Origin: a virus
Virus record (IMG/VR): IMGVR_UViG_3300045988_068058
Location: 1-44,843 of that record
Length of the DNA: 44,843 bases
Direction: 5' to 3' (one strand)
Of this stretch, positions 9,349 through 22,567 are shown one piece after another (the first letter of the stretch is position 1; every line of letters starts with the position of its first letter). The notes below the pieces were generated by a model. The model was not told the origin of the DNA, made no database searches, and worked only from the letters and a program-made list of their open reading frames with translations. Position numbers and translations under genes: made by a program.

Positions 9349-10911
9349 TTGGATGTTGATAGGATGGCAAATGAGAAAAATTTAATACCGAATTCTGAAC
9401 GAACTCCGAGCGAACTCCGAGAAATAACAAAAAAAGGCGGTATTAAGTCGGGAGAAGTACGCCGTCAAAAAAAGACCCTTTCTGAATTAGCAAAAATGAT
9501 AGCTGAGAATCCTGCCCCGAATGCCGCGAAAAAGAAACTCACAAAGATGGGTATATCTGATGAGGACGCAAATAATAACGCCTGTATTGTAGCTGCCGTA
9601 TATGATAAAGCTATCAAAGGCAATATGCAGGCAGTAGACAAATGGGAGCAGTTAGTAGCTGTATCAAAATCAGATGAAAGCAAATATGAACTTCCTGCCA
9701 GAGTGCTTGGCAAGGCGTTCGTAGACATTAACCGGCAGATCAAGCCCAATATCGAATATGTATTTGAAGGCGGTCGTGGTGGTCTGAAATCTTCATACGT
9801 AGCCTTTAAAATTGTTGAGCTTATCAAGAACAATCCTCAGATGCACGCCTGCATCACAAGGCAGGTAGCTGGTACTCTGAAAGATTCCGTGTACGCTAAT
9901 ATGAAATGGGCTATTAATGAACTTGGACTGATGGAAGAATTTGAATGTAAGGTGTCGCCACTTGAGATTAAATACATTAAAACCGGGCAGACAATATACT
10001 TCCGTGGTCTGGACGATGAAACCAAACTGAAATCTATTAAGCCGGAGTTTGGGTATATCGGAATCCTCTGGAAAGAGGAAAAAGATCAAATGAAGGGAGA
10101 TGCCCAGGAACGTTCTGTTAATCAGTCAGTGCTTCGTGGCGGCGATGAATCCTATGATTTTTCATCATATAACCCACCAAAATCAAAATCAAACTGGGTA
10201 AACAGGATTAAGCTCACGCCTAACCCGAAAAGGGTTATTCATCATTCGAGTTATCTGGAAGCCCCGGCGGAGTGGCTCGGGCAGAAGTTTATTGACGATG
10301 CAGCACATCTGAAAGAAATCAATCCAGAAGCCTATGAGCATGAATACCTGGGTGTCCCAAATGGAGACGGTGGAAACGTATTTGAATATCTCGAAATTAG
10401 AGATATTACAGACGAAGAGATCAGTCACATGGATCGTGTTTTCGCTGGCGTAGACTATGGATGGTACCCGGATGCCTTCTGCTATCTCCGAACTTATTAT
10501 GATTCTGCCAGAGAGAAGATATATCTGATTGATGAATTGTATGTAAATAAATGGAGTAACTCCAAGACCGCTGATTGGATCAAGAAAAAAGGCTATGATG
10601 ATTATACGATGATATGTGATTCTGCGGAGCCTAAATCCGTGAACGACTTCCGGGACGCTGGACTTCCTGCTAGAGGAGCAATCAAGGGGCCGGGAAGTAT
10701 CGAGTATGGTTTTAAATTCTTACAGACCAAGACACTTGTCATTGACCCGAAGCGAACGCCGAATGCATACAAGGAAATTACGGAATATGAGTATGATCGA
10801 GACAAAGAGGGTAATGTAATAAGCGGTTATCCTGATGGAAATGACCATGCAATCTCGGCACTTAGGTATGCTTACGAACCGCTATTTAACAGAAGGGGGA
10901 ACAGTGCATAA
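9349..10911 (+). CDS. terL: Terminase large subunit (PBSX-like) with an N-terminal TerS-like extension
   Basis: ATPase motifs EGGRGGLKSS and ILWKEE, plus a nuclease-domain Asp (FAGVDYGW). The N-terminal ~120 aa carries KKGGIKSGEVRRQKK, recalled from small-terminase proteins. Confidence 0.9.
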   Translation: MDVDRMANEKNLIPNSERTPSELREITKKGGIKSGEVRRQKKTLSELAKMIAENPAPNAAKKKLTKMGISDEDANNNACIVAAVYDKAIKGNMQAVDKWEQLVAVSKSDESKYELPARVLGKAFVDINRQIKPNIEYVFEGGRGGLKSSYVAFKIVELIKNNPQMHACITRQVAGTLKDSVYANMKWAINELGLMEEFECKVSPLEIKYIKTGQTIYFRGLDDETKLKSIKPEFGYIGILWKEEKDQMKGDAQERSVNQSVLRGGDESYDFSSYNPPKSKSNWVNRIKLTPNPKRVIHHSSYLEAPAEWLGQKFIDDAAHLKEINPEAYEHEYLGVPNGDGGNVFEYLEIRDITDEEISHMDRVFAGVDYGWYPDAFCYLRTYYDSAREKIYLIDELYVNKWSNSKTADWIKKKGYDDYTMICDSAEPKSVNDFRDAGLPARGAIKGPGSIEYGFKFLQTKTLVIDPKRTPNAYKEITEYEYDRDKEGNVISGYPDGNDHAISALRYAYEPLFNRRGNSA

Positions 10912-11102: not shown

Positions 11103-12548
11103 ATGGGACTTATAACAACACTAAAAAGGTGGTTTAACATGATATTCAAAAAACAAGCCGAAGAGGATTTTAACATCCAGGCAGCAGAATTTCCAGAAAT
11201 GGAATCACTGATTAACCGGTGTGCGAACATCTACAGGGGAGTACCGGAATGGTTAGATGACAAGAATAACATCAAGACGATTAATTTTGCTAAATCTGTC
11301 TGTTCAGAAACAGCACGGCTCGCAACATTGGCGATCGGCATTCAGATAGACGGTTCCGCAAGGGCTAAGTGGCTACAGGAACAGATTGATAAGGTATATT
11401 TCCAGATCCGGCACTGGGTAGAGTACGGCTGTGCTTACGGAACGGTGTTCGTCAAACCAAACAGTGAGAGCCTTGACGTATTTACTCCGGCAGACGTGAT
11501 GATTGTGGATTATGACAATCAGGAAATTAAAGGGATTATATTCAAGGATTCTTGTACTGTTGGACGGAAATACTATACAAGGCTCGAATATCATCGTTTT
11601 GTTGAGACCACTGTAGATGGCGTGACAACCTATCCGTATTATGTTTCAAACAGAGCCTATGTATCAAAATCCCCTCAAAGCATCGGCGATAAAATCGACC
11701 TTAAACAGACCAAATGGGCTGATCTGATGGCAGATACGCCACCGATTCTCAAAGCGAACGGGGAGAAACTGGACGGACCTCTATATGGAGTACTTCGGAC
11801 ACCACAGGCGAACAATGTGGATATTAGCACGCCGCTCGGACTTCCGATATTCGCTGAAGCTATCGAGGAACTGAAAGACCTGGACATTGCATACAGCCGC
11901 AATGCCGGAGAAATTTTCGATTCTCAGAAGATTGTTCTGGCAGATGATAGACTGCTGATGCCAAGCGGTGCACCTGTGTCAGCTATGTCGCCACAGGGCA
12001 TGGAGAACAGGCGAAATGAGATGAACTTACCGCACTTTGTCAAGAATGTATTTGGTGAGGGACAAGACACTTTCTATCAAGAAATCAATCCTCAACTCAA
12101 TACAGATACCCGTATAAGCGGAATAAATGCCCTTTTAAGCCAGTTGGGGTACAAGATTGGATTCTCCAACGGATACTTTGTTTTTAACGAATCTAGCGGT
12201 ATTCAGACAGCCACAGGAGTAGAAGCAGAACAGCAGAGGACAGTGCAGTTTATCAAAGATGTTCGAGACAAACTGGAATCTTGTCTGGACGAAGTTATTT
12301 ATGCACTGAACGTTTACGCTGACCTGTACGGACTTGCACCTGTCGGAGTCTATGAAGTCAATTATGATTTTGGAGATATTCTGTATGTGCGTGAAAATGA
12401 CCGTGCAAGATGGTGGCAGTATGTGACCACTGGCAAGGTTCCGGCATGGTTGTATTTTGTAAAATTCGAGGGAATGACTGAGGAAGAAGCGAAAGCAATG
12501 GTCAAAGAAGCTCAGCCAGACGAGCCAACATTATTCGGAGAGGAGTAA
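11103..12548 (+). CDS. Portal protein
   Basis: 481 aa, directly after terL, with an acidic C-terminus. Size and position fit SPP1 gp6-type portals. Confidence 0.8.
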   Translation: MGLITTLKRWFNMIFKKQAEEDFNIQAAEFPEMESLINRCANIYRGVPEWLDDKNNIKTINFAKSVCSETARLATLAIGIQIDGSARAKWLQEQIDKVYFQIRHWVEYGCAYGTVFVKPNSESLDVFTPADVMIVDYDNQEIKGIIFKDSCTVGRKYYTRLEYHRFVETTVDGVTTYPYYVSNRAYVSKSPQSIGDKIDLKQTKWADLMADTPPILKANGEKLDGPLYGVLRTPQANNVDISTPLGLPIFAEAIEELKDLDIAYSRNAGEIFDSQKIVLADDRLLMPSGAPVSAMSPQGMENRRNEMNLPHFVKNVFGEGQDTFYQEINPQLNTDTRISGINALLSQLGYKIGFSNGYFVFNESSGIQTATGVEAEQQRTVQFIKDVRDKLESCLDEVIYALNVYADLYGLAPVGVYEVNYDFGDILYVRENDRARWWQYVTTGKVPAWLYFVKFEGMTEEEAKAMVKEAQPDEPTLFGEE

Positions 12549-12552
12549 AAAA

Positions 12553-13947
12553 ATGGCAGATAAACCAGTAACAAGGGAAGAAAAATATCTTGCGTACTTG
12601 ACAGGTGATTACAAGGGCGAACTCCCAAAGCCAATCACAAGAAAAGAGAAGTATTTATACGAATTATGTTTGAAAGGAATGGGCGGTGAAATCTCGCCGG
12701 AGGAAATCAAAGCCGCAGTAAATGAGTACCTTGAAAAGAATCCGGTCAAGCCCGGAGCCACCACAGAACAGGCACAGCAGATCGAACAGAACAAGACGGA
12801 TATTACTTCGCTAAAGGAAGATATAAATATGTTATCTGTTAGCTCCATCTCTATTAAAGACGTGCTTACTGATAAAACAACACATGCCGGAATATATATA
12901 AGAACGGATGTACCAGTTGGTGATCCAAGATTTTATGAAGTTAATGAGAACTTTAATTCTTCCAATATCAATGAGATAGAACCGAACGAAACATATACCG
13001 TAATTTGTAAGAGGTATAACAATGGAGAAGAAATTCATTTTTGTGATGCAATGTTTTTCGATGTTGATCACAAATATATATCCAGAATTCAGAATACAAC
13101 TAAGTTTACAACACCAAATAACGCTAAATATTTTGCGATGACTCTATATTCAACAAGTTACGATCCAAATTCATGGGATAATTTTGATGATATCATTGTT
13201 GAAAATTCTAATCAAATTACTTATCCATTAATGAAAAATAGATTAAAAAATACCAGGGCATTTATAGGTTGCGAAGGCAAAAAGTGGATGGTTATAGGCG
13301 ATAGCATCACAGAACATAATTTTCGTGCGCTTGCGAACTATCATGATTATGTTGCCGAAGAACTAGGACTTGAAGTAATAAATTGTGGTGTAGGCGGTAG
13401 TGGTTATAAAGTTCATGATACAGATGATGATTATATTTCAACAATTTTACCATTTTATAAAAGAATTAGTAATTATTCGGAATACAAACCTGATTTAATC
13501 ACGATTATGGGTGGCATAAATGATTTGTTGTTTAGTGGCAAACAAATGGGCGAAATCACAGATACATCAACAGATACTTGGCTCGGTTGTGTATATCAAT
13601 TAATTCAAAATATAAAAACGACATTTCCGAACGTTCCTTTTGGTATTATGTCACCACTCCCAGCTTGCACAGTTGGAAGTGGAAATTGTTTATATAATTT
13701 TAACCCATCCGATAAGACAAACCAGGAATATATATTTGTTCAAAAACTAGAAGAGCTTTGCGATTATTACTGTATTCCATTTTTGAATCAATATAATAAA
13801 AGCGGTTTTAGACCTTGGGATGACGATTTCAAGTTAAAATACACATCATGTAGGCAAGAACAAAGCGGTGATGGATTGCATCCTAATGTCCAAGGGCATG
13901 AACTCATCTATCCTAGAATCAGGGAATTTATAAAAACGCTCATATAA
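12553..13947 (+). CDS. Fibre-like protein with C-terminal SGNH/GDSL hydrolase (esterase) domain
   Basis: All four SGNH blocks are present: GDSITE, GVGGSG, GGINDL and DGLHPNVQGH. N-terminal duplicated TR.EKYL motif and a coiled-coil segment. Confidence 0.85.
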   Translation: MADKPVTREEKYLAYLTGDYKGELPKPITRKEKYLYELCLKGMGGEISPEEIKAAVNEYLEKNPVKPGATTEQAQQIEQNKTDITSLKEDINMLSVSSISIKDVLTDKTTHAGIYIRTDVPVGDPRFYEVNENFNSSNINEIEPNETYTVICKRYNNGEEIHFCDAMFFDVDHKYISRIQNTTKFTTPNNAKYFAMTLYSTSYDPNSWDNFDDIIVENSNQITYPLMKNRLKNTRAFIGCEGKKWMVIGDSITEHNFRALANYHDYVAEELGLEVINCGVGGSGYKVHDTDDDYISTILPFYKRISNYSEYKPDLITIMGGINDLLFSGKQMGEITDTSTDTWLGCVYQLIQNIKTTFPNVPFGIMSPLPACTVGSGNCLYNFNPSDKTNQEYIFVQKLEELCDYYCIPFLNQYNKSGFRPWDDDFKLKYTSCRQEQSGDGLHPNVQGHELIYPRIREFIKTLI

Positions 13948-13963
13948 AGCATTGTCTGCATTT

Positions 13964-14176
13964 ATGGAGAAGTTTAGTGATATTGCATACCCTGGATTTC
14001 TGAAAGTAGTATTTGATGATGTTGGGCTGGAACATTTACAGAAAATACATAATAATTGGGAGAAAGTTAGAGAGCTACTGACAGTACATTATTGTGGTTT
14101 AGCACCATATGAACATATGGATTTAAAGGGAGATAATAAAAATGTCTTGGGGAAGTTATACTCTTATGAAATGTAA
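13964..14176 (+). CDS. Hypothetical protein
   Basis: ORF with no clear RBS. Confidence 0.35.
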   Translation: MEKFSDIAYPGFLKVVFDDVGLEHLQKIHNNWEKVRELLTVHYCGLAPYEHMDLKGDNKNVLGKLYSYEM

Positions 14177-14354
14177 AAAATGCGGAAAAGTATACGAAGT
14201 AGAAGATAGTACGTTGATTACGAATCAGACAGATTATAACAAGTGTCCGGTATGCCATTCTGAAGGAGAAATAGTATCTAGCAGATCCATATTAGATGTA
14301 ATGAATGAACAGAGTGAAAAATTTAAAAAGCGTAAGAAACGAGTGATTTTGTAA
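14142..14354 (+). CDS. Zinc-ribbon protein
   Basis: RBS AGGGAG upstream. CKKCG...CPVCH. Confidence 0.5.
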   Translation: MSWGSYTLMKCKKCGKVYEVEDSTLITNQTDYNKCPVCHSEGEIVSSRSILDVMNEQSEKFKKRKKRVIL

Positions 14355-14558
14355 AAATGATTTTCTATGATGCATTTTATAAAAAATGGGAAACGGCTTT
14401 TAGTTAATCAACCAGTTTAGAAAATTGAACAAACAGGAGAAAATCAAAATGGAATTTAATATCAAGACCAGGCTTGCTCATGCTTGGAATGCTTTAGTTG
14501 ACTAATAAAAAAAATTCAAAATATGTACCACAACATTTATCGAAAGAGGTGATATACT

Positions 14559-15788
14559 ATACTTAGTCCAGAATATTTACGAAGAATTACGGAGGGCAGT
14601 GAACAAATTGCCGAAGAACTGCATCAGTATATCATCTCTGAAATCGTATCACGGATGATGGCAAGAATCGGCAGAGGTGAGGACTATATTCTGACTAACG
14701 CTGATGCGTGGCGAATTAGAACGCTACAAGAATCCGGTGAACTACTAGAGGGCATTCTGGCAGAATTATCCAGATATACCAAGCGTGAACAACAGGAGCT
14801 TCTTGAAGCGTTCGAGGATGCCGGAATCACTGCAATGAACTATGATGACAAGGTATATAAGGCGGCAGGATTAAGCCCTGTACCGCTCGAACAATCCCCG
14901 GCTATGATAAGACTCATGGAACGGAATATGCTTGCAACCATGGGCGAGTGGAAGAACTTCACACGAACGACCGCAAGTGTCGCTCAGAGACTCTATATCG
15001 AGCAATGTGACCTTGCATATAATCATGTGATGACTGGGGCAGTTGGATATACGCAAGCCATCAAAGAAGCAGTTAACAACGTTGTGAGTGATGGCGTTAC
15101 CGTCACATATCCATCTGGTAGAAAAGACACAATTGAAACAGCAGTAGCACGCTCTGTCAGAACTGGCGTGGCACAGGCTACGGGAGATATATCCCTGAAA
15201 CGTATGGAAGAAATGGACTGGGATTTAGTTCTAGTCAGTGCACATATGGGAGCCAGGACAGGTGACGGCGGCGAGAATCCCGGAAATCACTCATGGTGGC
15301 AAGGCAAGATATACTCTCGTTCTGGCAAGAGTAAGAAATTTCCACCGTTCTCATTGACCGGATATGGAACAGCAAGCGGACTGTCAGGGGTCAACTGTCG
15401 GCATAGCTTTGGAGCCAGTGACGGGGAATTTAATCCCTATGCAGAACTATCAGCACAGGATAAAGCTGATAAAGGCAAACAGTACGAAAAGGAACAGAGA
15501 CAACGTACTTATGAACGGAGAATCAGAAAGACAAAGAGAGAAGTTCTCGGAATGCAAACAGCGGTTAATAACTGCAAGGACGAACAGGCGAAATTCGCAT
15601 TACAACAAGACCTTGACCGGAAGTCTTATCTTTTGCAGAAACAAAATGCTGCATACAAAGATTACTGCAAGCAGAACGACCTGAGGGAACTGCAAGACCG
15701 ACTCATGATAGCAAAGTGGAATCGCCAGAACGCCGCCAAAGCCAGAGGAGCGGCAAAGAGATATAAAACAGCAAAGGGGATTGACTGA
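14559..15788 (+). CDS. Minor capsid / head morphogenesis protein (Phage_min_cap2-like), probable non-canonical ATA start
   Basis: The frame is open from 14553. A strong RBS GAGGTGA lies at 14545-14552. The upstream segment LSPEYLRRITEGSEQIAEELHQYIISEIVSRM looks like the family N-terminus. The first ATG is at 14655. Motifs VSAHMGARTGD and GVNCRHS. Confidence 0.75.
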   Translation: MLSPEYLRRITEGSEQIAEELHQYIISEIVSRMMARIGRGEDYILTNADAWRIRTLQESGELLEGILAELSRYTKREQQELLEAFEDAGITAMNYDDKVYKAAGLSPVPLEQSPAMIRLMERNMLATMGEWKNFTRTTASVAQRLYIEQCDLAYNHVMTGAVGYTQAIKEAVNNVVSDGVTVTYPSGRKDTIETAVARSVRTGVAQATGDISLKRMEEMDWDLVLVSAHMGARTGDGGENPGNHSWWQGKIYSRSGKSKKFPPFSLTGYGTASGLSGVNCRHSFGASDGEFNPYAELSAQDKADKGKQYEKEQRQRTYERRIRKTKREVLGMQTAVNNCKDEQAKFALQQDLDRKSYLLQKQNAAYKDYCKQNDLRELQDRLMIAKWNRQNAAKARGAAKRYKTAKGID

Positions 15789-17292: not shown

Positions 17293-17472
17293 TTATTTTT
17301 TTTCTAGCCTGTCGAGTTCTGACAGAACAATGTCTCGAATAAAGGCACTGTTACTCTTGCCAAGGCCGAGCTTTTCAATTCTCTCTTTAGTTCCTTTTGG
17401 AAAGACAATATTCAGTCTATAGTTGTTGTTCTCATACTTCCTTACTGCTCTTTTCTGCGCTTCTGTTGCCAT
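17293..17472 (-). CDS. Ribbon-helix-helix (Arc/CopG-type) DNA-binding protein
   Basis: MATEAQKRAVRKYENNNYRLNIVFPKGTKERIEKL..SNSAFIRDIVLSEL fits a beta-alpha-alpha RHH pattern. RBS AAGGAGGG upstream. Confidence 0.7.
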   Translation of the reverse strand: MATEAQKRAVRKYENNNYRLNIVFPKGTKERIEKLGLGKSNSAFIRDIVLSELDRLEKK

Positions 17473-17504
17473 GTTAATCCCTCCTTTTTTCTTAATTATA
17501 AATC

Positions 17505-17516
17505 TATGTGCGTTAT
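17505..17516. promoter_or_regulatory. Third TATGTGCGTTAT operator copy, in the divergent promoter region
   Basis: Exact 12-mer shared with 17255-17266 and 17279-17290. Confidence 0.5.
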
Positions 17517-17600
17517 TGCACAATACTTTTTCGATACTTTTTTGAACTTTTTAGATTGATACATCTATGTAAAAATATAATCAGAAAGGCGGTGCATAAG

Positions 17601-18071
17601 ATGGCATTATATAACAATCCTTATCAATATAGCTTTGGCGTTCCGGGACAGATGAATCAGTTTCAGCAACAGCCTGTCCAGATGCCAGCTCAACCAGTGC
17701 AGCAACCACAGCAGAATAATAATGGTATCTTGTGGGTATCTGGCGAAGTCGGCGCAAAATCCTATCTGGTAGCACCCGGGACAAGCGTTTTACTAATGGA
17801 TTCAGAGGCAGAAAGATTCTTTATAAAATCCACAGACGTTTCCGGTATGCCACAGCCATTACGGACGTTTGAATACCACGAGGTAGGCGCTCAGATGCCG
17901 CCTAAACAGCCTGTTCAGAACATGGACAGTAAATATGTCACCAGACAGGAATATGACGATTTAAAAGGCAAATACGAAGCTATCATAAATCGATTAAATT
18001 CTTTTTCTGAACCTGTTAGGGCTAATACCGTACAGGAATCAGGAGCCAAAGGAGGAAATGCAGATGAGTAA
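17601..18071 (+). CDS. Gln/Pro-rich N-terminus plus beta-rich domain protein (GerQ-like architecture)
   Basis: RBS AGAAAGG upstream. QMNQFQQQPVQMPAQPVQQPQQNNN tail followed by GILWVSGEVGAKSYLVAPGTSVLLMD... Confidence 0.65.
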   Translation: MALYNNPYQYSFGVPGQMNQFQQQPVQMPAQPVQQPQQNNNGILWVSGEVGAKSYLVAPGTSVLLMDSEAERFFIKSTDVSGMPQPLRTFEYHEVGAQMPPKQPVQNMDSKYVTRQEYDDLKGKYEAIINRLNSFSEPVRANTVQESGAKGGNADE

Positions 18072-18285
18072 TCCATTATTCAATGCCCTCGGTGGTGGGA
18101 TGCCACAGGGAAACGGACCAATGCAGATGATACAGCAGTTTATGCAGTTTAAACAGAATTTTAAGGGAGATCCAAAAGCAGAAGTACAGAAAATGCTTCA
18201 GTCAGGAAAAATCTCTCAGCAACAGCTTAATCAAGTTCAGCAGATGGCGGGACAGTTCCAGCACATGCTGAAAGGAATGAAATAG
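18058..18285 (+). CDS. Gln/Met-rich 75-aa protein
   Basis: Overlaps the previous stop. Low-complexity, Gln-rich sequence. Confidence 0.55.
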   Translation: MQMSNPLFNALGGGMPQGNGPMQMIQQFMQFKQNFKGDPKAEVQKMLQSGKISQQQLNQVQQMAGQFQHMLKGMK

Positions 18286-18339
18286 TACATTACAATCTGG
18301 CCAGATTGATGTAAATACACAATAAAGGAGATTATAACT

Positions 18340-19119
18340 ATGGATGGAAATTATAGCTTAGCAGATATTGCCGCAGCTACTGGAAACGGTAGAAATAATG
18401 ACGGCATGTTTGGTGGAGATGGTGTATGGTGGCTTATCGTGCTTTTCTTATTCGTATTCTGCGGATGGGGAAACAATGGCTGGGGCAATAACGGCAACGG
18501 CGGTGGATATACAGCCACAGCAGCTACTCAGGCAGACATTCAGAGAGGATTCGATAACTCCGCAGTAATTAGCAAGCTTGACGGAATCAACAACGGTCTC
18601 TGTGATGGATTCTACGCAGTGAACAATGGTATGCTTACCGGATTTAACGGAATCAACACAAACATCATGCAGACTGGTTTCGGTATCCAGCAGGCAATCA
18701 ATGCTGACACTGTGGCTAATATGCAGAATACAAACGCATTGCAGGCACAGCTTGCGAACTGCTGTTGCGAAACCAGGGAAGCTATCCAGGGCATAAACTA
18801 CAATATGGCACAGAACACCTGTGCATTGCAGAACACCATGAACAGCAACACAAGAGACATTATTGACAGTCAGAATGCAGGAACAAGAGCCATTCTCGAT
18901 TATCTTTGCAATGAAAAGATTTCTAACCTGCAGGCTGAAAACAATGATCTCAGACGTGCTGCTTCTCAGGACCGCCAGAGTGCACTTCTCACAACTGCAA
19001 TGGCTTCTCAGACACAGCAGCTTATTAATGCAATCAATCCGGCACCGATTCCGGCATATCAGGTACCTAACCCAAACACATATTACGGATGCGGATGTAA
19101 CACCGGATGCAATTGTTAA
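18340..19119 (+). CDS. Membrane-anchored Gly/Asn/Trp-repeat, Asn/Gln-rich, Cys-rich protein
   Basis: RBS AAAGGAG upstream. TM segment VWWLIVLFLFVFCGW, repeat GWGNNGWGNNGNGGG, a CCC triplet, and C-terminal YYGCGCNTGCNC. Confidence 0.65.
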   Translation: MDGNYSLADIAAATGNGRNNDGMFGGDGVWWLIVLFLFVFCGWGNNGWGNNGNGGGYTATAATQADIQRGFDNSAVISKLDGINNGLCDGFYAVNNGMLTGFNGINTNIMQTGFGIQQAINADTVANMQNTNALQAQLANCCCETREAIQGINYNMAQNTCALQNTMNSNTRDIIDSQNAGTRAILDYLCNEKISNLQAENNDLRRAASQDRQSALLTTAMASQTQQLINAINPAPIPAYQVPNPNTYYGCGCNTGCNC

Positions 19120-19230
19120 TAACTTCATATCGAGAGTATCTTTCGATTGAATCGAATGTCGGCTTATGCCGTATTACACAGAGGGGCAGGCTGAGACCTG
19201 TCCTTTTGTGATATGAAAGGAGTATTTTTT

Positions 19231-19653
19231 ATGGCAGAATTTACAAGTATAGCTGCACAGACTGTAGCAGCAAAAGGAAACGTAGTATTTTCAAACACAG
19301 CAGTTAAAGGTTCTAACTGTATTCAGCACAGAGAGGGAAGCGGAATCATCACGCTGAGAGGGCTGACTAACCAGTGCAAAGCGAGATTCTTCGTGGATTT
19401 TTCTGGTAATATCGCAATTCCCACCGGCGGTACTGTCGGAGCTATTTCTCTGGCTATTGCAATTTCTGGTGAGCCGGTTCTTTCTTCACAGATGATTTCC
19501 ACACCGGCGGCAGTAGATCAGTATAACAATGTGTCCTCTGGTATCTATATTGATGTACCTCGCGGATGCTGCGTTAATATTGCAGTGGAGAACACAAGCG
19601 ATCAGGCGATTTCTGTTGCGAACGCAAACATTGTTGTAACCAGAGAAGCGTAG
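19231..19653 (+). CDS. All-beta 140-aa protein resembling BclA C-terminal / BxpB (C1q/TNF-like) exosporium proteins
   Basis: RBS AAGGAG 8 nt upstream. The strand pattern (...ARFFVDFSGNIAIPTGG..ISLAIAISGEPV...IYIDVP..CCVNIAVEN...ANIVVT) resembles that family from memory. Confidence 0.6.
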   Translation: MAEFTSIAAQTVAAKGNVVFSNTAVKGSNCIQHREGSGIITLRGLTNQCKARFFVDFSGNIAIPTGGTVGAISLAIAISGEPVLSSQMISTPAAVDQYNNVSSGIYIDVPRGCCVNIAVENTSDQAISVANANIVVTREA

Positions 19654-19664
19654 GAGGTGCGATT

Positions 19665-20219
19665 ATGAGAGACATTAAAGACTTATGTGCAAGAATTGAA
19701 GATGAGCTGTCCAAAATCGCTGACAATGGACTGACCACCGGAAATCTGGAAATGACATACAAACTGATTGATATGTATAAAGATATCAAGAATACGCAGT
19801 ACTGGGATAAGAAAGTTGAGTATTACAATACTGTCCTTGATGAGATGCGTGGTGGATATAATGACGATTACAGCGAACGTGGAAGAAAGCGTGATAGCAT
19901 GGGGAAATACAGCTCAAATGACGGCAGAATGATGCCAGATTACGACCGGGGCAGTTCTTATGCCAGACGTGGCGAGCATTATGTCAGAGGACATTACAGC
20001 CGTTCTGATGGGCAAGACGCCTACGATGACTACATGACACAGAAACAGAGCTATCGTTCCGACAAATCTGAGGACTGCAAAAGAAAGATGCTTGCCGCTC
20101 TGGAAGAACATCTGGACGAACTCACGACAGAAATGAGCGATATGTCCAAGGATGCAGAGTGCCGGGAAGAACGTGATCTTGTCAAGAGATACGTGGAAAA
20201 GCTCCGTGATATGCTCTAA
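19665..20219 (+). CDS. Protein with helical ends and an Arg/Asp/Tyr/Ser/Gly-rich disordered core
   Basis: RBS GGAGGTG upstream; 184 aa. Confidence 0.65.
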   Translation: MRDIKDLCARIEDELSKIADNGLTTGNLEMTYKLIDMYKDIKNTQYWDKKVEYYNTVLDEMRGGYNDDYSERGRKRDSMGKYSSNDGRMMPDYDRGSSYARRGEHYVRGHYSRSDGQDAYDDYMTQKQSYRSDKSEDCKRKMLAALEEHLDELTTEMSDMSKDAECREERDLVKRYVEKLRDML

Positions 20220-20229
20220 AAACGTAAAA

Positions 20230-20265
20230 GTGGTAGAGAGGTAGTTAAAAGAAATCTGTTATAAT
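20230..20265 (+). promoter_or_regulatory. Candidate late promoter: box GTGGTAGAGAG - N16 - TGtTATAAT
   Basis: Second copy of the 9258-9293 architecture, with a consensus extended -10. Confidence 0.45.
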
Positions 20266-20338
20266 GTAATTGCGCAACAGGAAGCACAACGGTTGTTTTG
20301 ACGTTTTCGTTTTACCCTCCTTTCTTAAAGTAGCTGGT

Positions 20339-20387
20339 ACACACGCTTTAGTGGAAACTCAAGCAGGTTCGAACCCTGCCGTGTGTA
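20339..20387 (+). ncRNA. 48-nt tRNA-like minihelix (acceptor stem + canonical T-arm, no anticodon arm)
   Basis: ACACACG pairs with CGTGTGT. T-arm is GCAGG-TTCGAAC-CCTGC. Only 17 nt (CTTTAGTGGAAACTCAA) lie between the acceptor 5' strand and the T-stem. Confidence 0.45.
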
Positions 20388-20538
20388 TTTGCCGTCTGGC
20401 ACGCAAGATGGCGCACCTCCTTGATTAAGGTTTTTGTATTCATAAAGTTTTTCCTTTGAAAAAGAAATAAATATCCGAAACAACTCGTGGCAGGCATGAC
20501 ACGTAAAATACCTTGCTAACCCGGGAATCCGGGTTAAT

Positions 20539-20611
20539 GGAAATATAGCTCTAGTGGTAGAGCAGTATTCGCATAGAATATTGGTCAGAGGTTCGATTCC
20601 TCTTATTTCCT
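20539..20611 (+). tRNA. tRNA-like gene, anticodon CAT (Met/Ile2-type), non-canonical (G33, T14); no encoded CCA
   Basis: Hand-folded cloverleaf: GGAAATA-TA-GCTC-TAGTGGTA-GAGC-A-GTATT-CGCATAG-AATAT-TGGTC-AGAGG-TTCGATT-CCTCT-TATTTCC-T. Confidence 0.6.
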
Positions 20612-20687
20612 TACCCTGCCAGTGGTCTAACTGGCTTAATCCATTTACCTGCGGCGGCAGGTCAATAAACACGACCAGGAGGATATT

Positions 20688-21323
20688 ATGCAGAAACTTA
20701 TTGACACATTAAAATCGTTTGGAATTGAAATCCCGGAGGACAAACAGGCAGATGTAAAGAAAGCACTCTCTGAGCATTATAAGAATGCAAAGGAAGTAGC
20801 AAAGACCCTGCTAAAAGTCGAGGGAGAGCGTGACAACTGGAAAGAACGTGCTGAGACAGCAGAAGAGACATTAAAAGGTTTTGACGGTATCGACCCGGCG
20901 AATATCCAGACAGAACTTGCTGGATGGAAGAAAAAAGCCGAGGATGCAGAGAAAGAATTCAATGCAAAGATCTATGACCGTGATTTCTCAGATACTCTGA
21001 AAGCGGCACTTGACGATGTTAAGTTTTCCAGTGAAGCGGCTAAGAAGTCAGTCATGGCAGACATCAAAGAAGCCGGATTAAAGCTGAAAGACGGGAAAAT
21101 CCTTGGACTGAATGACCTGATTGAACAGATGAAGCAGTCTGACGCATCCGCTTTTGTGGATGAATCTCAGCAGCAGGCTCAGCAGAATCAGGCAAGATTC
21201 GCAGCACCGCGGATTGGACAGCAGCAGACACCGGGGAGCATGACTAAAAAAGATATCGAAGCAATTAAAGACCCGTCCGAGAGACAGGCCGCAATTGCTC
21301 AGAATATCCAGTTATTCCAGTGA
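20688..21323 (+). CDS. Capsid scaffolding protein (DUF4355-like)
   Basis: Charged coiled-coil protein with a Gln-rich C-terminus, immediately upstream of the major capsid gene. Confidence 0.75.
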   Translation: MQKLIDTLKSFGIEIPEDKQADVKKALSEHYKNAKEVAKTLLKVEGERDNWKERAETAEETLKGFDGIDPANIQTELAGWKKKAEDAEKEFNAKIYDRDFSDTLKAALDDVKFSSEAAKKSVMADIKEAGLKLKDGKILGLNDLIEQMKQSDASAFVDESQQQAQQNQARFAAPRIGQQQTPGSMTKKDIEAIKDPSERQAAIAQNIQLFQ

Positions 21324-21400: not shown

Positions 21401-22567
21401 ATGGCAGCAAAAGCTAATCTTATTATGACAAATGACATCCGGGTAACAGCACGTGAGATTGACTTTGTGACCAGATTTGAAAGAAACTGGGAACACTTGC
21501 GCGAGATTCTTGGTATCATGCGTCCAATCAAAAAGACGCCCGGAGCGGTTCTTAAATCAAAATATGCAGAGGGTACATTGCAGAATGGAAATGTTAAAGA
21601 GGGTGAAGAAATCCCTTACAGCAAATTCACTGTAAAAGAAAAGCCTTATGCAGAAATGAATATTGAGAAGTACGCAAAGGCGGTATCTATCGAAGCAATC
21701 AAGGACCACGGTTATGAGAACGCTGTTCAGATGACTGATGATGAATTCCTTTTCCAGCTTCAGACCAATGTTACTGAAAGATTTTATGATTATCTGAAAA
21801 CAGGTACCCTCACATTTACAGAGACTACTTTCCAGATGGCTCTGGCAATGGCTAAAGGCCGTGTTGAGAACAAATTCAAACAGATGCACAGGAATGTGAC
21901 TGGCGTTGTTGGATTTGTGAATATTCTGGATGTGCATGAGTATATCGGAGCAGCTGAGATTTCTATTCAGAATCAGTTCGGATTCCAGTACATGAAAGAT
22001 TTCATGGGCTTCAATACCATCTTCCTGTTATCTGACAGTGAAATCCCGAGAGGACAGATTATTGCGACACCCGTTGAGAACATTGTTCTTTACTATGTTG
22101 ACCCGAACGAATCTGACTTTGCGAGAGCAGGACTTGTATACACCGTATCCGGCGAGACAAATCTGATTGGATTCCACACTCAGGGTAACTACCACACAGC
22201 AGTATCCGAAGCATTTGCGATCATGGGACTTACCCTCTTTGCAGAGTATATTGACGCTATTGCTGTTGGAACTATCAACACAACTCAGACACTTGGAACT
22301 CTGACTGTAAACTCTGCGGCAGGAAGTAAAAGTGGAGACACTAAAGTGACTATTACTCCGGCAAAAGCAAGCGCGGGAAATGTGTACAAGTACAAAGTTG
22401 CATCTTCTGAGACTGCCGTAGACTACGGACAGAATGTGAAGAACTGGAGCGCATGGGATGGCGAATCTGACATTACAGCAACAACAGGGCAGGTAATCAC
22501 AGTGGTTGAATGTGACAGCACCTATAAGGCGCTGAGTGCAGGGCACGCGACTGTAACAGCAAAATGA
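21401..22567 (+). CDS. Major capsid protein with C-terminal Ig-like domain
   Basis: 388 aa after the scaffold gene. N-terminal REIDFVTRFERNW pattern. The last ~90 aa (TLTVNSAAGSKSGDTKVTITPAKA...HATVTAK) look Big_2-like. Confidence 0.85.
   Translation: MAAKANLIMTNDIRVTAREIDFVTRFERNWEHLREILGIMRPIKKTPGAVLKSKYAEGTLQNGNVKEGEEIPYSKFTVKEKPYAEMNIEKYAKAVSIEAIKDHGYENAVQMTDDEFLFQLQTNVTERFYDYLKTGTLTFTETTFQMALAMAKGRVENKFKQMHRNVTGVVGFVNILDVHEYIGAAEISIQNQFGFQYMKDFMGFNTIFLLSDSEIPRGQIIATPVENIVLYYVDPNESDFARAGLVYTVSGETNLIGFHTQGNYHTAVSEAFAIMGLTLFAEYIDAIAVGTINTTQTLGTLTVNSAAGSKSGDTKVTITPAKASAGNVYKYKVASSETAVDYGQNVKNWSAWDGESDITATTGQVITVVECDSTYKALSAGHATVTAK

What the first reader, a model, noticed from the sequence alone, without database searches (positions are those of the whole stretch)
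20266..20687. 400-nt leader of the capsid operon carrying two non-canonical tRNA-like elements and two anti-Shine-Dalgarno-like motifs
Between the candidate late promoter and the scaffold gene there is no ORF with coding character; the 115-aa minus-strand ORF there is spurious. The region instead contains the following.
(a) A 48-nt minihelix (20339-20387) with a perfect 7-bp acceptor stem and a canonical T-arm (GCAGG-TTCGAAC-CCTGC). Only 17 nt stand in place of the D and anticodon arms.
(b) A 72-nt cloverleaf (20539-20610) with anticodon CAT. It has G at position 33, where U is nearly universal, a C32-G38 pair that would shrink the loop to 5 nt, T14 instead of A14, and no encoded CCA.
(c) Several perfect hairpins: 20391-20412, 20518-20535 (AACCCGG-GAAT-CCGGGTT), 20616-20633 and 20648-20663.
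(d) Two stretches matching the 3' end of 16S rRNA: CCCTCCTTTCT at 20315-20325 and CACCTCCTT at 20414-20422. These could pair with the AGGAGGA RBS of the scaffold gene at ~20675.
Possible roles include RNase P/Z processing signals that uncouple an anti-SD clamp from the capsid mRNA, decoys or replacements for tRNAs targeted by host anticodon nucleases, or a Y-RNA-like tRNA mimic.
Basis: partly seen in the sequence, partly recalled or inferred. Interest (0 to 1): 0.7.

Follow-up and report, generated by a model that had tools for sequence, protein, structure and literature searches.

The report
Structured capsid-operon leader carrying swappable tRNA
This is the conserved, non-coding leader RNA in front of the scaffold and capsid genes of a temperate gut (Lachnospiraceae) phage; it is built from interchangeable structured modules, one being a tRNA-like minihelix that stands in for the orphan RNA motif RAGATH-21 and another a slot for swappable tRNA genes, filled here by a recurrent phage tRNA class with an abnormal anticodon loop.

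Summary

- **Minihelix (20336-20389).** It is not a tRNA and not chance. It is a covarying module found in at least 119 viral contigs, at exactly the place where sister phages carry Rfam RAGATH-21. RAGATH-21 turns out to be the constant leader element of PF06810 (GP20) scaffold genes.
- **tRNA (20539-20611).** It scores 50 bits and fills a hypervariable cargo slot: 54 different cassettes in 79 close relatives. Its odd loop CGCAUAG (G33, C32-G38) is invariant on four tRNA backbones in at least two phage families, so it is selected and not decay.
- **Hairpins.** All belong to conserved blocks. The two-hairpin block after the tRNA covaries strongly.
- **CCUCC motifs.** Both are conserved, are not minus-strand ribosome-binding sites, and remain unexplained.

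Best model (inferred): host RNase P and RNase Z cut at the tRNA and the tRNA-like module. This releases the tRNA and leaves the capsid mRNA with a defined, hairpin-protected 5' end. The anti-SD clamp, decoy and Y-RNA ideas are untested or not supported.

This is a new variant of known kinds, with moderately high interest.

The parts
20257..20265 (+). Promoter-like extended -10 element TGTTATAAT, with no -35. The transcript start is inferred at about 20272.
   Evidence: Read directly. An equivalent TGnTAnAAT element lies at the same relative position in all lineages (also L419). It is not detected by the two-hexamer consensus scan.
20315..20325 (+). 5' CCUCC motif (CCCUCCUUUCU), identical to the 3' tail of 16S rRNA and preceded by a U-rich tract.
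   Evidence: It is conserved 5-17 nt upstream of RAGATH-21 or the minihelix in about 110 of 120 loci. No minus-strand ORF is conserved below it; the candidate start codon is ACG in the window.
20336..20389 (+). Type-B tRNA-like minihelix module. It has a 10-bp outer stem (20336-45 with 20380-89), a connector 20346-62 with a D-loop-like GUGGAAA, and a canonical T-arm at 20363-79 stacked directly on the 3' strand. It occupies the position of RAGATH-21.
   Evidence: G.U pairs fix the + strand. There is no Rfam hit at E<=10 and no ARAGORN call.
20391..20412 (+). Conserved hairpin GCCGUCU-GGCACGCA-AGAUGGC that follows the minihelix. Type-A relatives have a different hairpin at the same place.
   Evidence: z = -3.05. 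Changes are compensatory or wobble (C-G, U.G, U-A). One relative (L214) has the hairpin exactly inverted.
20414..20422 (+). 3' CCUCC motif (CACCUCCUU). It matches 16S rRNA ...UCACCUCCUU and sits 1-4 nt after the hairpin.
   Evidence: It is present in both leader types of the main family but absent in about 30-40 of 120 RAGATH-21 loci, including Dulem virus 35.
20476..20538 (+). Conserved block preceding the first tRNA. It has hairpin CGUG-GCAGGCAUGA-CACG (20486-20503), linker UAAAAUACCUUGCUAA, and hairpin UAACCCGG-GAAU-CCGGGUUA (20517-36).
   Evidence: It hits 82 of 86 loci. Hairpin 1 covaries between lineages (CGUG/CACG with GUGC/GCAC). It is not pistol or any other Rfam family.
20539..20611 (+). 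tRNA gene with anticodon CAU and non-canonical anticodon loop C32 G33 C34 A35 U36 A37 G38. It also has U14 and no encoded CCA. It is the cargo of the hypervariable slot.
20612..20676 (+). Conserved 5'UTR block of the scaffold mRNA. It has UUACCCUG abutting the tRNA 3' end, hairpin 1 (20618-35), the single-stranded stretch CUUAAUCCAUUU, and hairpin 2 (20647-62).
   Evidence: It hits 85 of 86 loci. Covariation across 12 lineages is strong. In Dulem virus 35 the same block follows RAGATH-21 directly. There is no GP20-a/b hit.
20677..20690 (+). Shine-Dalgarno sequence AGGAGGA (20677-83) and ATG (20688-90) of the scaffold gene (PF06810).

Best explanation
Window 20257-20687 is the transcribed, non-coding leader of the scaffold-major-capsid operon of a temperate siphophage of Lachnospiraceae. 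It is a chain of separately exchangeable RNA modules:
1. A promoter.
2. A U-rich tract with a CCUCC motif.
3. A tRNA-like module. Here it is a minihelix with a canonical T-arm stacked on a long stem. In sister phages it is RAGATH-21.
4. A hairpin with a second CCUCC motif.
5. A pre-tRNA block.
6. A cargo slot holding 0-4 tRNAs. Here it holds one tRNA-CAU with the class-specific loop CGCAUAG.
7. A two-hairpin block immediately before the scaffold ribosome-binding site.

Proposed mechanism:
- Shown: the primary late transcript contains all of these elements.
- Inferred: host RNase P and RNase Z cut at the tRNA.
- More tentatively inferred: they also cut at the tRNA-like module, whose 3' flank matches that of the tRNAs.
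- Consequences of cutting: the tRNA is released in step with late gene expression, the upstream leader is detached, and the scaffold/capsid mRNA keeps a fixed 5' end (UUACCC...) protected by two conserved hairpins.
- The G33/G38 loop is a selected trait of this tRNA class. It most plausibly changes recognition of the anticodon loop by a host protein (an anticodon nuclease, or a synthetase or modification enzyme) while keeping the CAU anticodon.
For: Context:
- The scaffold is PF06810 and the MCP lies downstream. TerL and portal lie upstream.
- Hosts are Lachnospiraceae, including prophages in the isolates Blautia sp. MSJ-19 and Enterocloster hominis.

Module swap:
- Between the two CCUCC motifs there is either RAGATH-21 at 70.9-91.5 bits, in about 48 loci, or the minihelix module, in about 36 loci. 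The flanking proteins in both groups are 90-100% identical.
- The minihelix structure is supported by covariation, an independent RNAalifold fold and G.U strand bias.

RAGATH-21 is constant and tRNAs are optional.

Common junction:
- UUACCYUG follows the tRNA 3' end in the window family, and follows RAGATH-21 directly in Dulem virus 35.
- The 3' flanks agree. After tRNAs, +1 is U in 76% and C in 0% of cases. After RAGATH-21, +1 is U in 88%. After the minihelix the flank is A|UUUGY.
- No tRNA here encodes CCA. From established knowledge of Bacillus RNase Z, that is the substrate class cut by RNase Z.

Cargo slot: 54 distinct cassettes occur in 79 loci and cover at least 10 isotypes. The exchange boundaries lie at the tRNA ends.

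Downstream block: covariation score is 0.358 against 0.113 for shuffles (0 of 500 reach it), and hairpin 1 is 100% paired with 3 of 5 pairs doubly changed.

G33 class:
- 20 of 43 unique CAU tRNAs carry CGCAUAG on three backbones that are as little as 52% identical, with compensatory changes in the adjacent stem.
- A fourth backbone occurs in 53 loci of another phage family.

Precedents: G33 in Candida tRNA-Ser(CAG) is functional and tunes synthetase recognition (PMC8178436). Loop changes in phage tRNAs have been proposed as nuclease evasion (PMC10264068).
Against: - There is no transcript, cleavage or aminoacylation data. Every processing step is inferred from anatomy.
- The minihelix stack is 15 bp (10 + 5) and that of RAGATH-21 is about 14 bp, against 12 bp in a tRNA. 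Recognition by RNase P or Z is therefore not assured.
- The shared 3' flank could reflect common descent of the flank rather than a shared cleavage site.
- The model gives no role to the two conserved CCUCC motifs, the pre-tRNA block, or the many invariant unpaired nucleotides of RAGATH-21. Those nucleotides look more like a ligand- or protein-binding fold.
- The discriminator base of G33 tRNAs varies (U, A, G), which is odd for one amino-acid identity.
- A Watson-Crick C32-G38 pair with G33 could make the tRNA a poor decoder.
Confidence: 0.5

Rival explanations
1. Anti-Shine-Dalgarno clamp. One or both CCUCC motifs pair in cis with the scaffold AGGAGGA and hold translation off until tRNA processing, or a structural switch in the RAGATH-21/minihelix module, releases them.
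For: - Both motifs are conserved and complementary to the SD over 6-8 nt.
- They are the only + strand CCTCCTT sites in the window that are not SDs of minus-strand genes.
- They match 16S rRNA beyond the CCUCC core.
- The 5' motif is kept in nearly all lineages, including those where RAGATH-21 lies only ~90-140 nt from the SD.
Against: - Any strong SD is complementary to these motifs by definition.
- Pairing does not extend beyond the core in divergent lineages (reading).
- No covariation is possible because both partners are invariant.
- The 3' motif is missing in about a third of RAGATH-21 loci.
- The minimum-free-energy fold of the window leader does not pair either motif with the SD.
- In the window, 255-365 nt and a tRNA separate the partners.
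Confidence: 0.15
2. Protein- or ligand-binding operator. RAGATH-21 or the minihelix, and/or the two-hairpin 5'UTR block, are binding sites for a phage protein. Candidates are free scaffolding protein repressing its own translation, or a late-gene antiterminator or activator. tRNA-likeness would be incidental.
For: - RAGATH-21 has about 35 invariant unpaired nucleotides and a variable-length P2, which is typical of a specific tertiary fold.
- Structured RNAs directly upstream of GP20/PF06810 scaffold genes are a recurrent theme. Examples are GP20-a, GP20-b and six further candidates (PMC10690425). GP20-b occurs in RG-TP1, and in tandem with RAGATH-21 in L125.
- From established knowledge, P22 scaffolding protein regulates its own synthesis post-transcriptionally.
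- In some lineages a strong terminator-like hairpin precedes the 5' motif.
Against: - The minihelix lacks P2, P3 and most invariant nucleotides of RAGATH-21, yet replaces it in otherwise near-identical phages. A shared specific ligand or protein pocket is therefore hard to maintain.
- No candidate RNA-binding protein was identified in the window.
- This rival is compatible with the processing model for the 5'UTR block.
Confidence: 0.2
3. Leader-derived trans-acting small RNA. After cleavage at the first tRNA, the ~260-nt upstream piece (CCUCC - minihelix - hairpin - CCUCC - pre-tRNA block) is a stable regulatory RNA. It would be analogous to P4 CI or P1 C4 RNA, which are cut from a leader by RNase P and pair with repeated target sites. 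Alternatively it could be a decoy of the 16S 3' end for a host factor or toxin.
For: - The layout of repeat, structured RNA, repeat resembles seqA-cI-seqC of P4 (established knowledge).
- RAGATH-21 contains a conserved GGAGG.
- A hairpin followed by UCACCUCCUU resembles helix 45 plus the 3' tail of 16S rRNA (direct reading).
Against: - The internal GGAGG varies (GGAGG, UGAGG, AGAGG) with no compensating change in the flanking CCUCC.
- The minihelix version has no GGAGG at all.
- A general anti-SD RNA would also hit the phage's own late genes.
- There are no expression data.
Confidence: 0.08
4. The G33 tRNA does not decode. It would be a decoy or inhibitor for an anticodon-loop-specific host nuclease, or merely an RNase P/Z 'punctuation' signal.
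For: - The 7-nt loop is invariant while the body, and even the discriminator base, vary.
- C32-G38 plus G33 predicts a closed 5-nt loop.
- The slot also holds tRNA-like elements that ARAGORN rejects and that have 5-nt loops.
- G33-CAU co-occurs in one array with a canonical Ile-UAU tRNA and with a U33 CAU tRNA, so it is not simply a replacement for them.
Against: - All other tRNA hallmarks are kept, and the covariance-model score is well above threshold.
- The anticodon itself is conserved, and the same backbone occurs with C34 or U34 (CGCAUAG and CGUAUAG). That looks like codon-level selection.
- Candida shows that a G33 tRNA can decode.
- The phage uses AUA for 22% of Ile codons.
Confidence: 0.2

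Closest known systems
RAGATH-21 RNA (Rfam RF03097), an orphan candidate RNA from the Weinberg/Breaker comparative-genomics screens
   Same: - It holds the same position: between the 5' CCUCC motif and a hairpin with the 3' CCUCC motif, upstream of tRNAs and a PF06810 scaffold gene.
- It is on the same strand.
- It has a 10-bp outer stem.
- Its 5' junction is similar (CUUAAUAGAAAC against CUUUAGUGGAAAC).
- It has a 7-nt-loop hairpin whose 3' strand runs straight into the outer stem.
- Its U-rich 3' flank is similar.
   Different: - The window element lacks P2, P3 (the GAAA tetraloop) and the invariant GGAGGUUGAAAAG.
- Its terminal hairpin is a canonical 5-bp T-arm (UUCGAAC) instead of GGA-UGCAAUU-UCC.
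- It scores nothing against the Rfam model even at E<=10.
Phage-encoded tRNAs, specifically the tRNA-CAU isoacceptors (elongator Met and Ile2)
   Same: It has the cloverleaf, G18G19, the TTCGA T-loop and the CAU anticodon, and scores 50 bits on RF00005. It is expressed with late genes, as many phage tRNAs are.
   Different: It has G33 instead of the near-universal U33, a Watson-Crick-capable C32-G38, and U14. Its discriminator varies between backbones. It sits inside an mRNA leader in an exchangeable slot.
Candida albicans tRNA-Ser(CAG), the classic natural G33 tRNA (PMC8178436)
   Same: G33 replaces U33 in a tRNA that is kept by selection. In Candida the G33 lowers recognition by a competing synthetase while decoding continues.
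   Different: It is eukaryotic, has a different anticodon and has no C32-G38 pair. No synthetase ambiguity has been shown for the phage tRNA.
GP20-a / GP20-b RNA motifs (RF02991, RF03003) and further candidate RNAs upstream of GP20 genes (PMC10690425)
   Same: These are structured, conserved 5'UTR elements ending within ~25 nt of the start of a PF06810 scaffold gene. GP20-b sits exactly where the window has its two-hairpin block, and can follow RAGATH-21 directly.
   Different: The window's block does not match either Rfam model. It has its own consensus: UUACCCYG, hairpin 1, CUNAAUCCAUUACC, hairpin 2.
tRNA-associated theta (HDV-like) ribozymes of gut phages (PMC10879173)
   Same: A conserved structured element starts directly at the 3' end of CCA-less tRNAs in gut Caudoviricetes, which implies a role in defining that end.
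   Different: Theta ribozymes start with G1 and fold as a nested double pseudoknot with a catalytic C. The window block starts UUACCC, forms two independent hairpins, cannot be drawn as HDV-like, and matches no ribozyme family. Host enzymes rather than self-cleavage are the likelier agents.
tRNA punctuation, and RNase P-processed phage leader RNAs (mitochondrial transcripts; P1 C4 and P4 CI RNAs)
   Same: tRNA or tRNA-like structures embedded in a longer transcript would act as cleavage marks that separate functional RNAs.
   Different: This is an analogy only, and no cleavage data exist here. In P1 and P4 the released RNA pairs with defined targets, which is not supported here (no covariation).

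Membership tests
tRNA (RF00005), element b, 20539-20611 | Cloverleaf scoring above the curated covariance-model threshold and called by a tRNA detector. | tested here: met
   It scores 50 bits against a gathering threshold of 29. ARAGORN calls tRNA-Met(cat). The fold z-score is -4.25.
tRNA (RF00005), element b | Canonical 7-nt anticodon loop with U33 and no Watson-Crick 32-38 pair. | tested here: not met
   The loop is C32 G33 C34 A35 U36 A37 G38. It is predicted to close to a 5-nt loop. The deviation is conserved on four backbones.
tRNA (RF00005), element b | Tertiary-interaction nucleotides: U8, A14, G18G19 and T54-psi55-C56. | tested here: inconclusive
   U8, G18G19 and TTCGA are present. 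Position 14 is U, not A, and is conserved within this backbone.
tRNA (RF00005), element b | Processed, CCA-tailed, aminoacylated and used in decoding. | not testable with these tools
   No CCA is encoded, and the 3' flank is UUACC. RNA-level experiments are needed.
tRNA, element a (minihelix 20336-20389) | Four-arm cloverleaf with an anticodon arm. | tested here: not met
   There is no ARAGORN call and no RF00005 or clan hit at E<=10. Only the acceptor-like stem and T-arm are present. A possible 4-bp connector helix has wobble-only support.
RAGATH-21 (RF03097), element a | Score at or above the 70.3-bit gathering threshold, with the P2/P3/P4 architecture and invariant junction nucleotides. | tested here: not met
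   There is no hit in 20150-20750 at E<=10, while relatives score 70.9-91.5 bits.
RAGATH-21 (RF03097), element a | Genomic position and flanks: between CCUCC motifs, in the leader of the PF06810 scaffold gene, on the + strand. | tested here: met
   The two modules are mutually exclusive at the same site.
Theta / HDV-like ribozyme (block after the tRNA) | G1 at the cleavage site abutting the tRNA 3' end, and a P1-P2-P3-P1.1-P4 nested pseudoknot with a catalytic C. | tested here: not met
   The block starts UUACCC. No HDV-type Rfam hit appears at E<=10. Covariation supports two independent hairpins instead. The manual threading attempt failed.
Pistol, hammerhead, twister or hatchet self-cleaving ribozymes (block before the tRNA and inter-tRNA spacers) | Match to the family covariance model. 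| tested here: not met
   No hits were found in the window or in relatives with long spacers. The resemblance of the linker to pistol was recalled from memory only.
GP20-a / GP20-b cis-regulatory motifs (block 20612-20676) | Match to RF02991 or RF03003. | tested here: not met
   There is no hit in the window. GP20-b is found at the same position in RG-TP1 and L125. By eye, L326 (and L094) show GP20-b-like sequence at this position, but there is no Rfam hit on record for them (L094 got none).
Y RNA / YrlA, tmRNA, T-box, riboswitches | Match to the family model. | tested here: not met
   cmscan of all 4227 Rfam families at E<=10 over 20150-20750 gave only the tRNA plus chance-level hits. ARAGORN found no tmRNA.
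Cis anti-Shine-Dalgarno sequestering element | Complementarity to the regulated SD. | tested here: met
   CCUCCU pairs with AGGAGG over 6 nt in the window, and up to 8 nt in relatives. This is generic for any strong SD.
Cis anti-Shine-Dalgarno sequestering element | Evidence that the pairing forms, from covariation or a predicted alternative structure. | tested here: inconclusive
   Both partners are invariant, so covariation cannot be assessed. The minimum-free-energy fold does not pair them. The 3' motif is dispensable in many lineages.

The most novel reading that the evidence does not exclude
RAGATH-21 and its T-arm minihelix variant may be tRNA mimics that host RNase P/Z use as built-in cleavage marks in phage capsid-operon leaders. 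Real tRNA genes would then have been captured repeatedly next to them, creating a fast-evolving tRNA cargo slot. The commonest cargo is a previously undescribed class of phage tRNA-CAU. Its invariant C32-G33...A37-G38 loop would let it keep decoding while escaping a host anticodon-loop nuclease, or mis-recognition by a synthetase. This reading would assign a function to an orphan RNA family and define a new natural tRNA class that breaks the U33 rule.
Probability: 0.25. Interest if true: 0.8.

Novelty: new variant of a known kind. Interest (0 to 1): 0.62.

Why it matters
- **Context for an orphan RNA.** RAGATH-21 has no literature. Here it gets a precise genomic context: it is the constant leader element of PF06810 scaffold genes in Lachnospiraceae phages. 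It also gets a natural minimal substitute that points to which features matter, namely a long stem capped by a T-loop hairpin.
- **A tRNA exchange hotspot.** Near-identical gut phages carry different tRNAs at one site. That is the pattern expected if tRNA content is under rapid host-specific selection, for example from tRNA-targeting defences or from codon supply.
- **A rule-breaking tRNA class.** A widespread class of phage tRNAs violates U33 and the 32-38 rule yet is clearly under purifying selection. Such a tRNA either decodes unusually or does something other than decode.
- **Testable systems.** Prophages with the same architecture sit in cultured isolates (Blautia sp. MSJ-19 and Enterocloster hominis CLA-SR-H021).

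Tried and rejected
- **Minus-strand genes under the CCUCC motifs.** All other + strand CCTCCTT sites in the window are SDs of minus-strand genes. Below the leader motifs, however, the candidate start is ACG in the window, A-run length (5-8) shifts the frame among relatives, and the substitutions are the compensatory stem changes. Rejected.
- **Pistol ribozyme for the pre-tRNA block.** The linker resembled pistol from memory. There is no Rfam hit, and no pseudoknot partner that covaries. Rejected.
- **HDV-like/theta ribozyme for the post-tRNA block.** It cannot be threaded, lacks G1 and has no Rfam hit. Rejected.
- **Pseudoknot between the flanking CCUCC and the internal GGAGG of RAGATH-21.** The internal sequence varies without compensation, and the minihelix has no GGAGG. 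Not supported.
- **attP or tRNA-fragment origin of the minihelix.** Both acceptor strands are present and covary, and the module is far from the integrase. Rejected.
- **The exact minihelix 23-mer elsewhere.** It occurs once, on a giant-virus MAG contig (L086). That site was not examined; treated as an unrelated match.
- **Intrinsic terminator or attenuator in the window leader.** The scan flags only the T-arms.
- **Searches that led nowhere.** (alignment-based locus search) returned only the closest relatives again. One search found no relative of the tRNA in cultured-phage records. Searches found no text or supplement on RAGATH-21 or on the CGCAUAG loop.
- **AUA-decoder idea for the G33 tRNA.** It is consistent with C34/U34 variants on one backbone and with 22% AUA usage. 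It is weakened by co-occurrence with a canonical Ile-UAU tRNA. Left open.
Full report
**1. What is there**

- ARAGORN finds a single tRNA in the whole window, tRNA-Met(CAT) at 20539-20611.
- Rfam finds the same tRNA at 50 bits against a threshold of 29, and nothing else at gathering thresholds.
- A permissive scan of 20150-20750 at E<=10 adds only chance-level hits.
- The covariance-model alignment places G at position 33, C32 opposite G38, and U at position 14.
- ViennaRNA folds the anticodon arm as 7 bp with a 5-nt loop.

**2. Context**

PHROGs and Pfam give this gene order:
- TerL at 9349-10911 and portal at 11103-12548.
- Minor head proteins at 12553-15788.
- Genes of unknown function up to 20219.
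- The leader.
- A PF06810 scaffold protein (the former Phage_GP20 family) at 20688-21323.
- The major head protein at 21401-22567.

The phage has an integrase and an Erf-type recombinase, and no gene for tRNA processing. A scan of species-representative genomes with the RAGATH-21 core finds it in Enterocloster hominis, Blautia sp. MSJ-19, and in Dorea, Faecalimonas, Mediterraneibacter and Eisenbergiella MAGs. The hosts are therefore Lachnospiraceae. A few Bacteroidales and Akkermansia MAG hits are phage-sized contigs and are probably binning errors.

**3. Relatives show a modular leader**

Five human faecal virome records and 80 IMG/VR loci fetched with the scaffold protein share the flanking genes at 90-100% identity. 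More than 507 relatives exist in total. They differ inside the leader.

The blocks just before and just after the tRNA are present in 82 and 85 of 86 loci. The tRNA itself is shared with only three loci.

Between the two blocks lies a cargo slot.
- There are 54 different cassettes in 79 loci.
- A cassette holds one to four tRNAs: CAU, Thr, Val, Asn, Gln, Tyr, Ile-UAU, Leu, Ser or Cys.
- Some cassettes hold tRNA-like elements that ARAGORN rejects.
- The exchange boundaries coincide with the tRNA ends.

**4. The minihelix is the alternative to RAGATH-21**

Rfam finds RAGATH-21 (RF03097) at 77-91 bits in all five virome relatives. It lies on the + strand, exactly between a 5' UCCUCCUUUC and a hairpin followed by CACCUCCUU.

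Across the 86 loci this position holds either RAGATH-21 (about 48 loci) or the window's minihelix module (about 36), and never both. A pattern scan finds the minihelix module in at least 119 further viral contigs.

On an alignment of 27 distinct modules the evidence for structure is as follows.
- The outer stem, the T-arm and the following hairpin are 99.2% paired.
- Each helix has one position with a double compensatory change.
- No shuffle out of 500 reaches the observed covariation score, and slid controls pair at only 31-50%.
- RNAalifold predicts the same three helices on its own.
- Frequent G.U pairs would be A.C on the other strand, so the + strand is the functional one.
- A fourth short helix in the connector, with loop UGGAAAG, is compatible but rests on wobble changes only.

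The window element does not match the RAGATH-21 model at all. It lacks P2, P3 and the invariant GGAGGUUGAAAAG. What the two modules share is:
- a 10-bp outer stem;
- a similar 5' junction (CUUAAUAGAAAC against CUUUAGUGGAAAC);
- a 7-nt-loop hairpin whose 3' strand continues directly into the outer stem, which is the acceptor/T-arm geometry of a tRNA.

**5. RAGATH-21 is the constant element and tRNAs are optional**

In all lineages examined the element lies upstream of a scaffold gene, preceded by a CCUCC-type motif.

Lineages differ in what follows.
- Some have no tRNA: L125, L141 and the Enterocloster prophage.
- In L125 (Rfam) — and, by eye only, in the Enterocloster prophage L326 — RAGATH-21 is followed directly by GP20-b (RF03003).
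- In Dulem virus 35 it is followed directly by the same UUACCCUG, hairpin, CUUAAUCCAUUACC, hairpin block that follows the tRNA in the window.
- The cultured M. gnavus phage RG-TP1 has GP20-b alone.

Structured candidates upstream of GP20 genes have been noted before. GP20-a, GP20-b and six more are described in PMC10690425. No function is known for any of them, and no paper in the library mentions RAGATH-21.

**6. A shared 3' junction**

Across 289 distinct tRNA-plus-flank combinations, the base after the discriminator is U in 76% and never C. The commonest flanks are UUACC and UACCC.

After the RAGATH-21 outer stem the first base is U in 88%, with consensus U-U/A-G-C-C. After the minihelix the flank is A|UUUGY.

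None of the tRNAs encodes CCA. From established knowledge of Bacillus, CCA-less precursors are matured by RNase Z followed by the CCA-adding enzyme. This is the main anatomical argument that the tRNA-like module and the tRNAs are handled alike. It remains an inference.

**7. The block before the scaffold gene**

Aligned across 12 lineages, hairpin 1 is 100% paired, with three of five pairs showing double changes. The whole-structure covariation score is 0.358 against 0.113 for shuffles, and 0 of 500 shuffles reach it.

The apparent mispairs in hairpin 2 are the window row, which MAFFT shifted by one column. Read directly, its stem ACCUGC/GCAGGU is perfect.

The block is not GP20-a/b, and it is not an HDV-like theta ribozyme. 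Theta ribozymes begin with G1 at the tRNA end (PMC10879173), whereas this block begins UUACCC and forms two independent hairpins.

A 5'-proximal hairpin pair is what would protect a processed mRNA from 5' exonucleolytic decay in Firmicutes. That follows from established knowledge and is an inference here.

**8. The G33 tRNA is a class**

Over all fetched loci ARAGORN finds 97 distinct tRNAs.
- Of 43 CAU tRNAs, 20 carry exactly CGCAUAG, two carry CACAUAG and one carries UGCAUAG. The remaining 20 have U33.
- Two UAU tRNAs carry CGUAUAG.
- Most other isotypes have a canonical U33 loop; a few ARAGORN calls, mostly tRNA-like elements (e.g. Ser-ACU UCACUGA, Leu-UAA UAUAAAC, one Thr CCUGUAA), do not.

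The G33 carriers fall on three backbones that are as little as 52% identical. Adjacent stem pairs change in a compensatory way, for example GUAUC/GAUAU to GUAUU/AAUAU in the window.

A generic pattern scan finds a fourth backbone in 53 loci of a different family with larger genomes. There the tRNA closes a tRNA array and is followed by UUAC-GGAGG and a start codon. The loop is therefore under purifying selection.

Its amino-acid identity is open.
- C34/U34 variants on one backbone, and 22% AUA usage (none in scaffold or MCP), suggest an AUA decoder.
- Against that, G33-CAU co-occurs with a canonical Ile-UAU tRNA and with an initiator-like CAU tRNA in single arrays.
- The discriminator base also varies.

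Two precedents are relevant.
- G33 in Candida tRNA-Ser(CAG) tunes synthetase recognition (PMC8178436).
- Phage tRNAs have been proposed to change non-anticodon loop positions to escape anticodon nucleases (PMC10264068).

No literature on this particular loop was found.

**9. The CCUCC motifs**

They are conserved and match 16S rRNA beyond the core. They are the only + strand CCTCCTT sites in the window that are not explained as SDs of minus-strand genes. They are not SDs of conserved minus-strand ORFs (and direct reading).

Their role is unresolved.
- Complementarity to the scaffold SD is generic.
- No covariation is available.
- The 3' motif is dispensable in about a third of lineages.
- The predicted fold does not pair them with the SD.
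- A pseudoknot with the GGAGG of RAGATH-21 is not supported.

**10. Verdict**

The best-supported reading is a modular leader in which tRNA and tRNA-like structures serve as processing marks and cargo, followed by a conserved structured 5'UTR. All biochemical steps are inferred.

The two tRNA-related elements are new variants of known kinds: a RAGATH-21 surrogate and a G33 tRNA class. Interest is moderately high, because an orphan RNA family gains a context and a testable hypothesis, and because a selected tRNA class breaks two near-universal anticodon-loop rules.

Noticed in passing
L214 (IMG/VR 3300045988_008551), equivalent of window 20391-20412: The hairpin after the minihelix is present as its exact reverse complement (GCCATCTTGCGTGCCAGATGGC instead of GCCATCTGGCACGCAAGATGGC). 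This is a clean hairpin inversion that keeps the stem and complements the loop.
   Followed up: no
First element of many multi-tRNA cassettes, e.g. L003 2291-2360, L006, L010, L016, L018, L035, L053: A conserved tRNA-like element (GUGGAAUGUACGYUARUGG.A.ACUGACAGRGUCGCNCYCUGG..UCCGGUUCGAUUCCGGGCGUUCCGC). It has an acceptor stem and a T-arm, but its 'anticodon' stem covaries around a 5-nt loop UCGCN. ARAGORN does not call it, and Rfam gives only a weak tRNA-Sec-like 21.9 bits. A second such element occurs in L013, L024, L043 and L050.
   Followed up: partly
Inter-tRNA spacers in L003, L009, L024, L035, L060, L061, L080, L082 and L330: A recurrent spacer motif lies just 5' of internal tRNAs: AAAGGUUA-NNGC-UUAUCCUG-(hairpin)-CGAAAAGC. 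The UUAYCCUG word also starts the block after the last tRNA (UUACCCUG) and resembles AUACCUUG in the block before the first tRNA. It matches no Rfam family.
   Followed up: partly
L110 10362-10445: A skipping-rope RNA (RF02924, 49.2 bits), another orphan Rfam family, sits between two tRNAs inside a RAGATH-21-type scaffold leader.
   Followed up: no
L426, L439, L446 and about 50 further loci (contigs of 50-65 kb): In a second gut phage family the G33 tRNA-CAU closes a tRNA array. It is followed after 4 nt by GGAGG and the ATG of a small Cys-rich ORF, so the tRNA 3' end nearly abuts a ribosome-binding site. The spacers resemble those of the window family.
   Followed up: partly
L094, L113, L125, L141, L326, L334 (upstream of the 5' CCUCC motif): In this lineage the leader is preceded by a direct repeat GCCAGWCGCCAGWCGCAGAGCC and a strong terminator-like hairpin with a U-run. 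It lies downstream of a small zinc-ribbon-like gene, and there is no obvious -10 element. That hints at read-through or antitermination rather than a dedicated promoter.
   Followed up: no
window 17293-17523 (- strand): A small minus-strand gene (MATEAQKRAVRKYENNNYRLNIVFPKGTKERIEKL...), judged from its sequence alone to resemble a ribbon-helix-helix (Arc/CopG-type) protein, has its own strong SD. It is embedded in the otherwise + strand morphogenesis region, among five genes of unknown function (17508-20219) that separate the minor head genes from the scaffold leader.
   Followed up: no
window 18340-19119 (+): A 259-aa protein of unknown function (phrog_16490) has a Gly/Asn/Trp-rich N-terminal part, a hydrophobic segment and a Cys-rich C-terminus (…YYGCGCNTGCNC). 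It has no Pfam match.
   Followed up: no
window 2972-4090 (+): A PAPS-reductase-like protein (phrog_424, E = 3e-24) lies in the early region, next to the primase/helicase.
   Followed up: no
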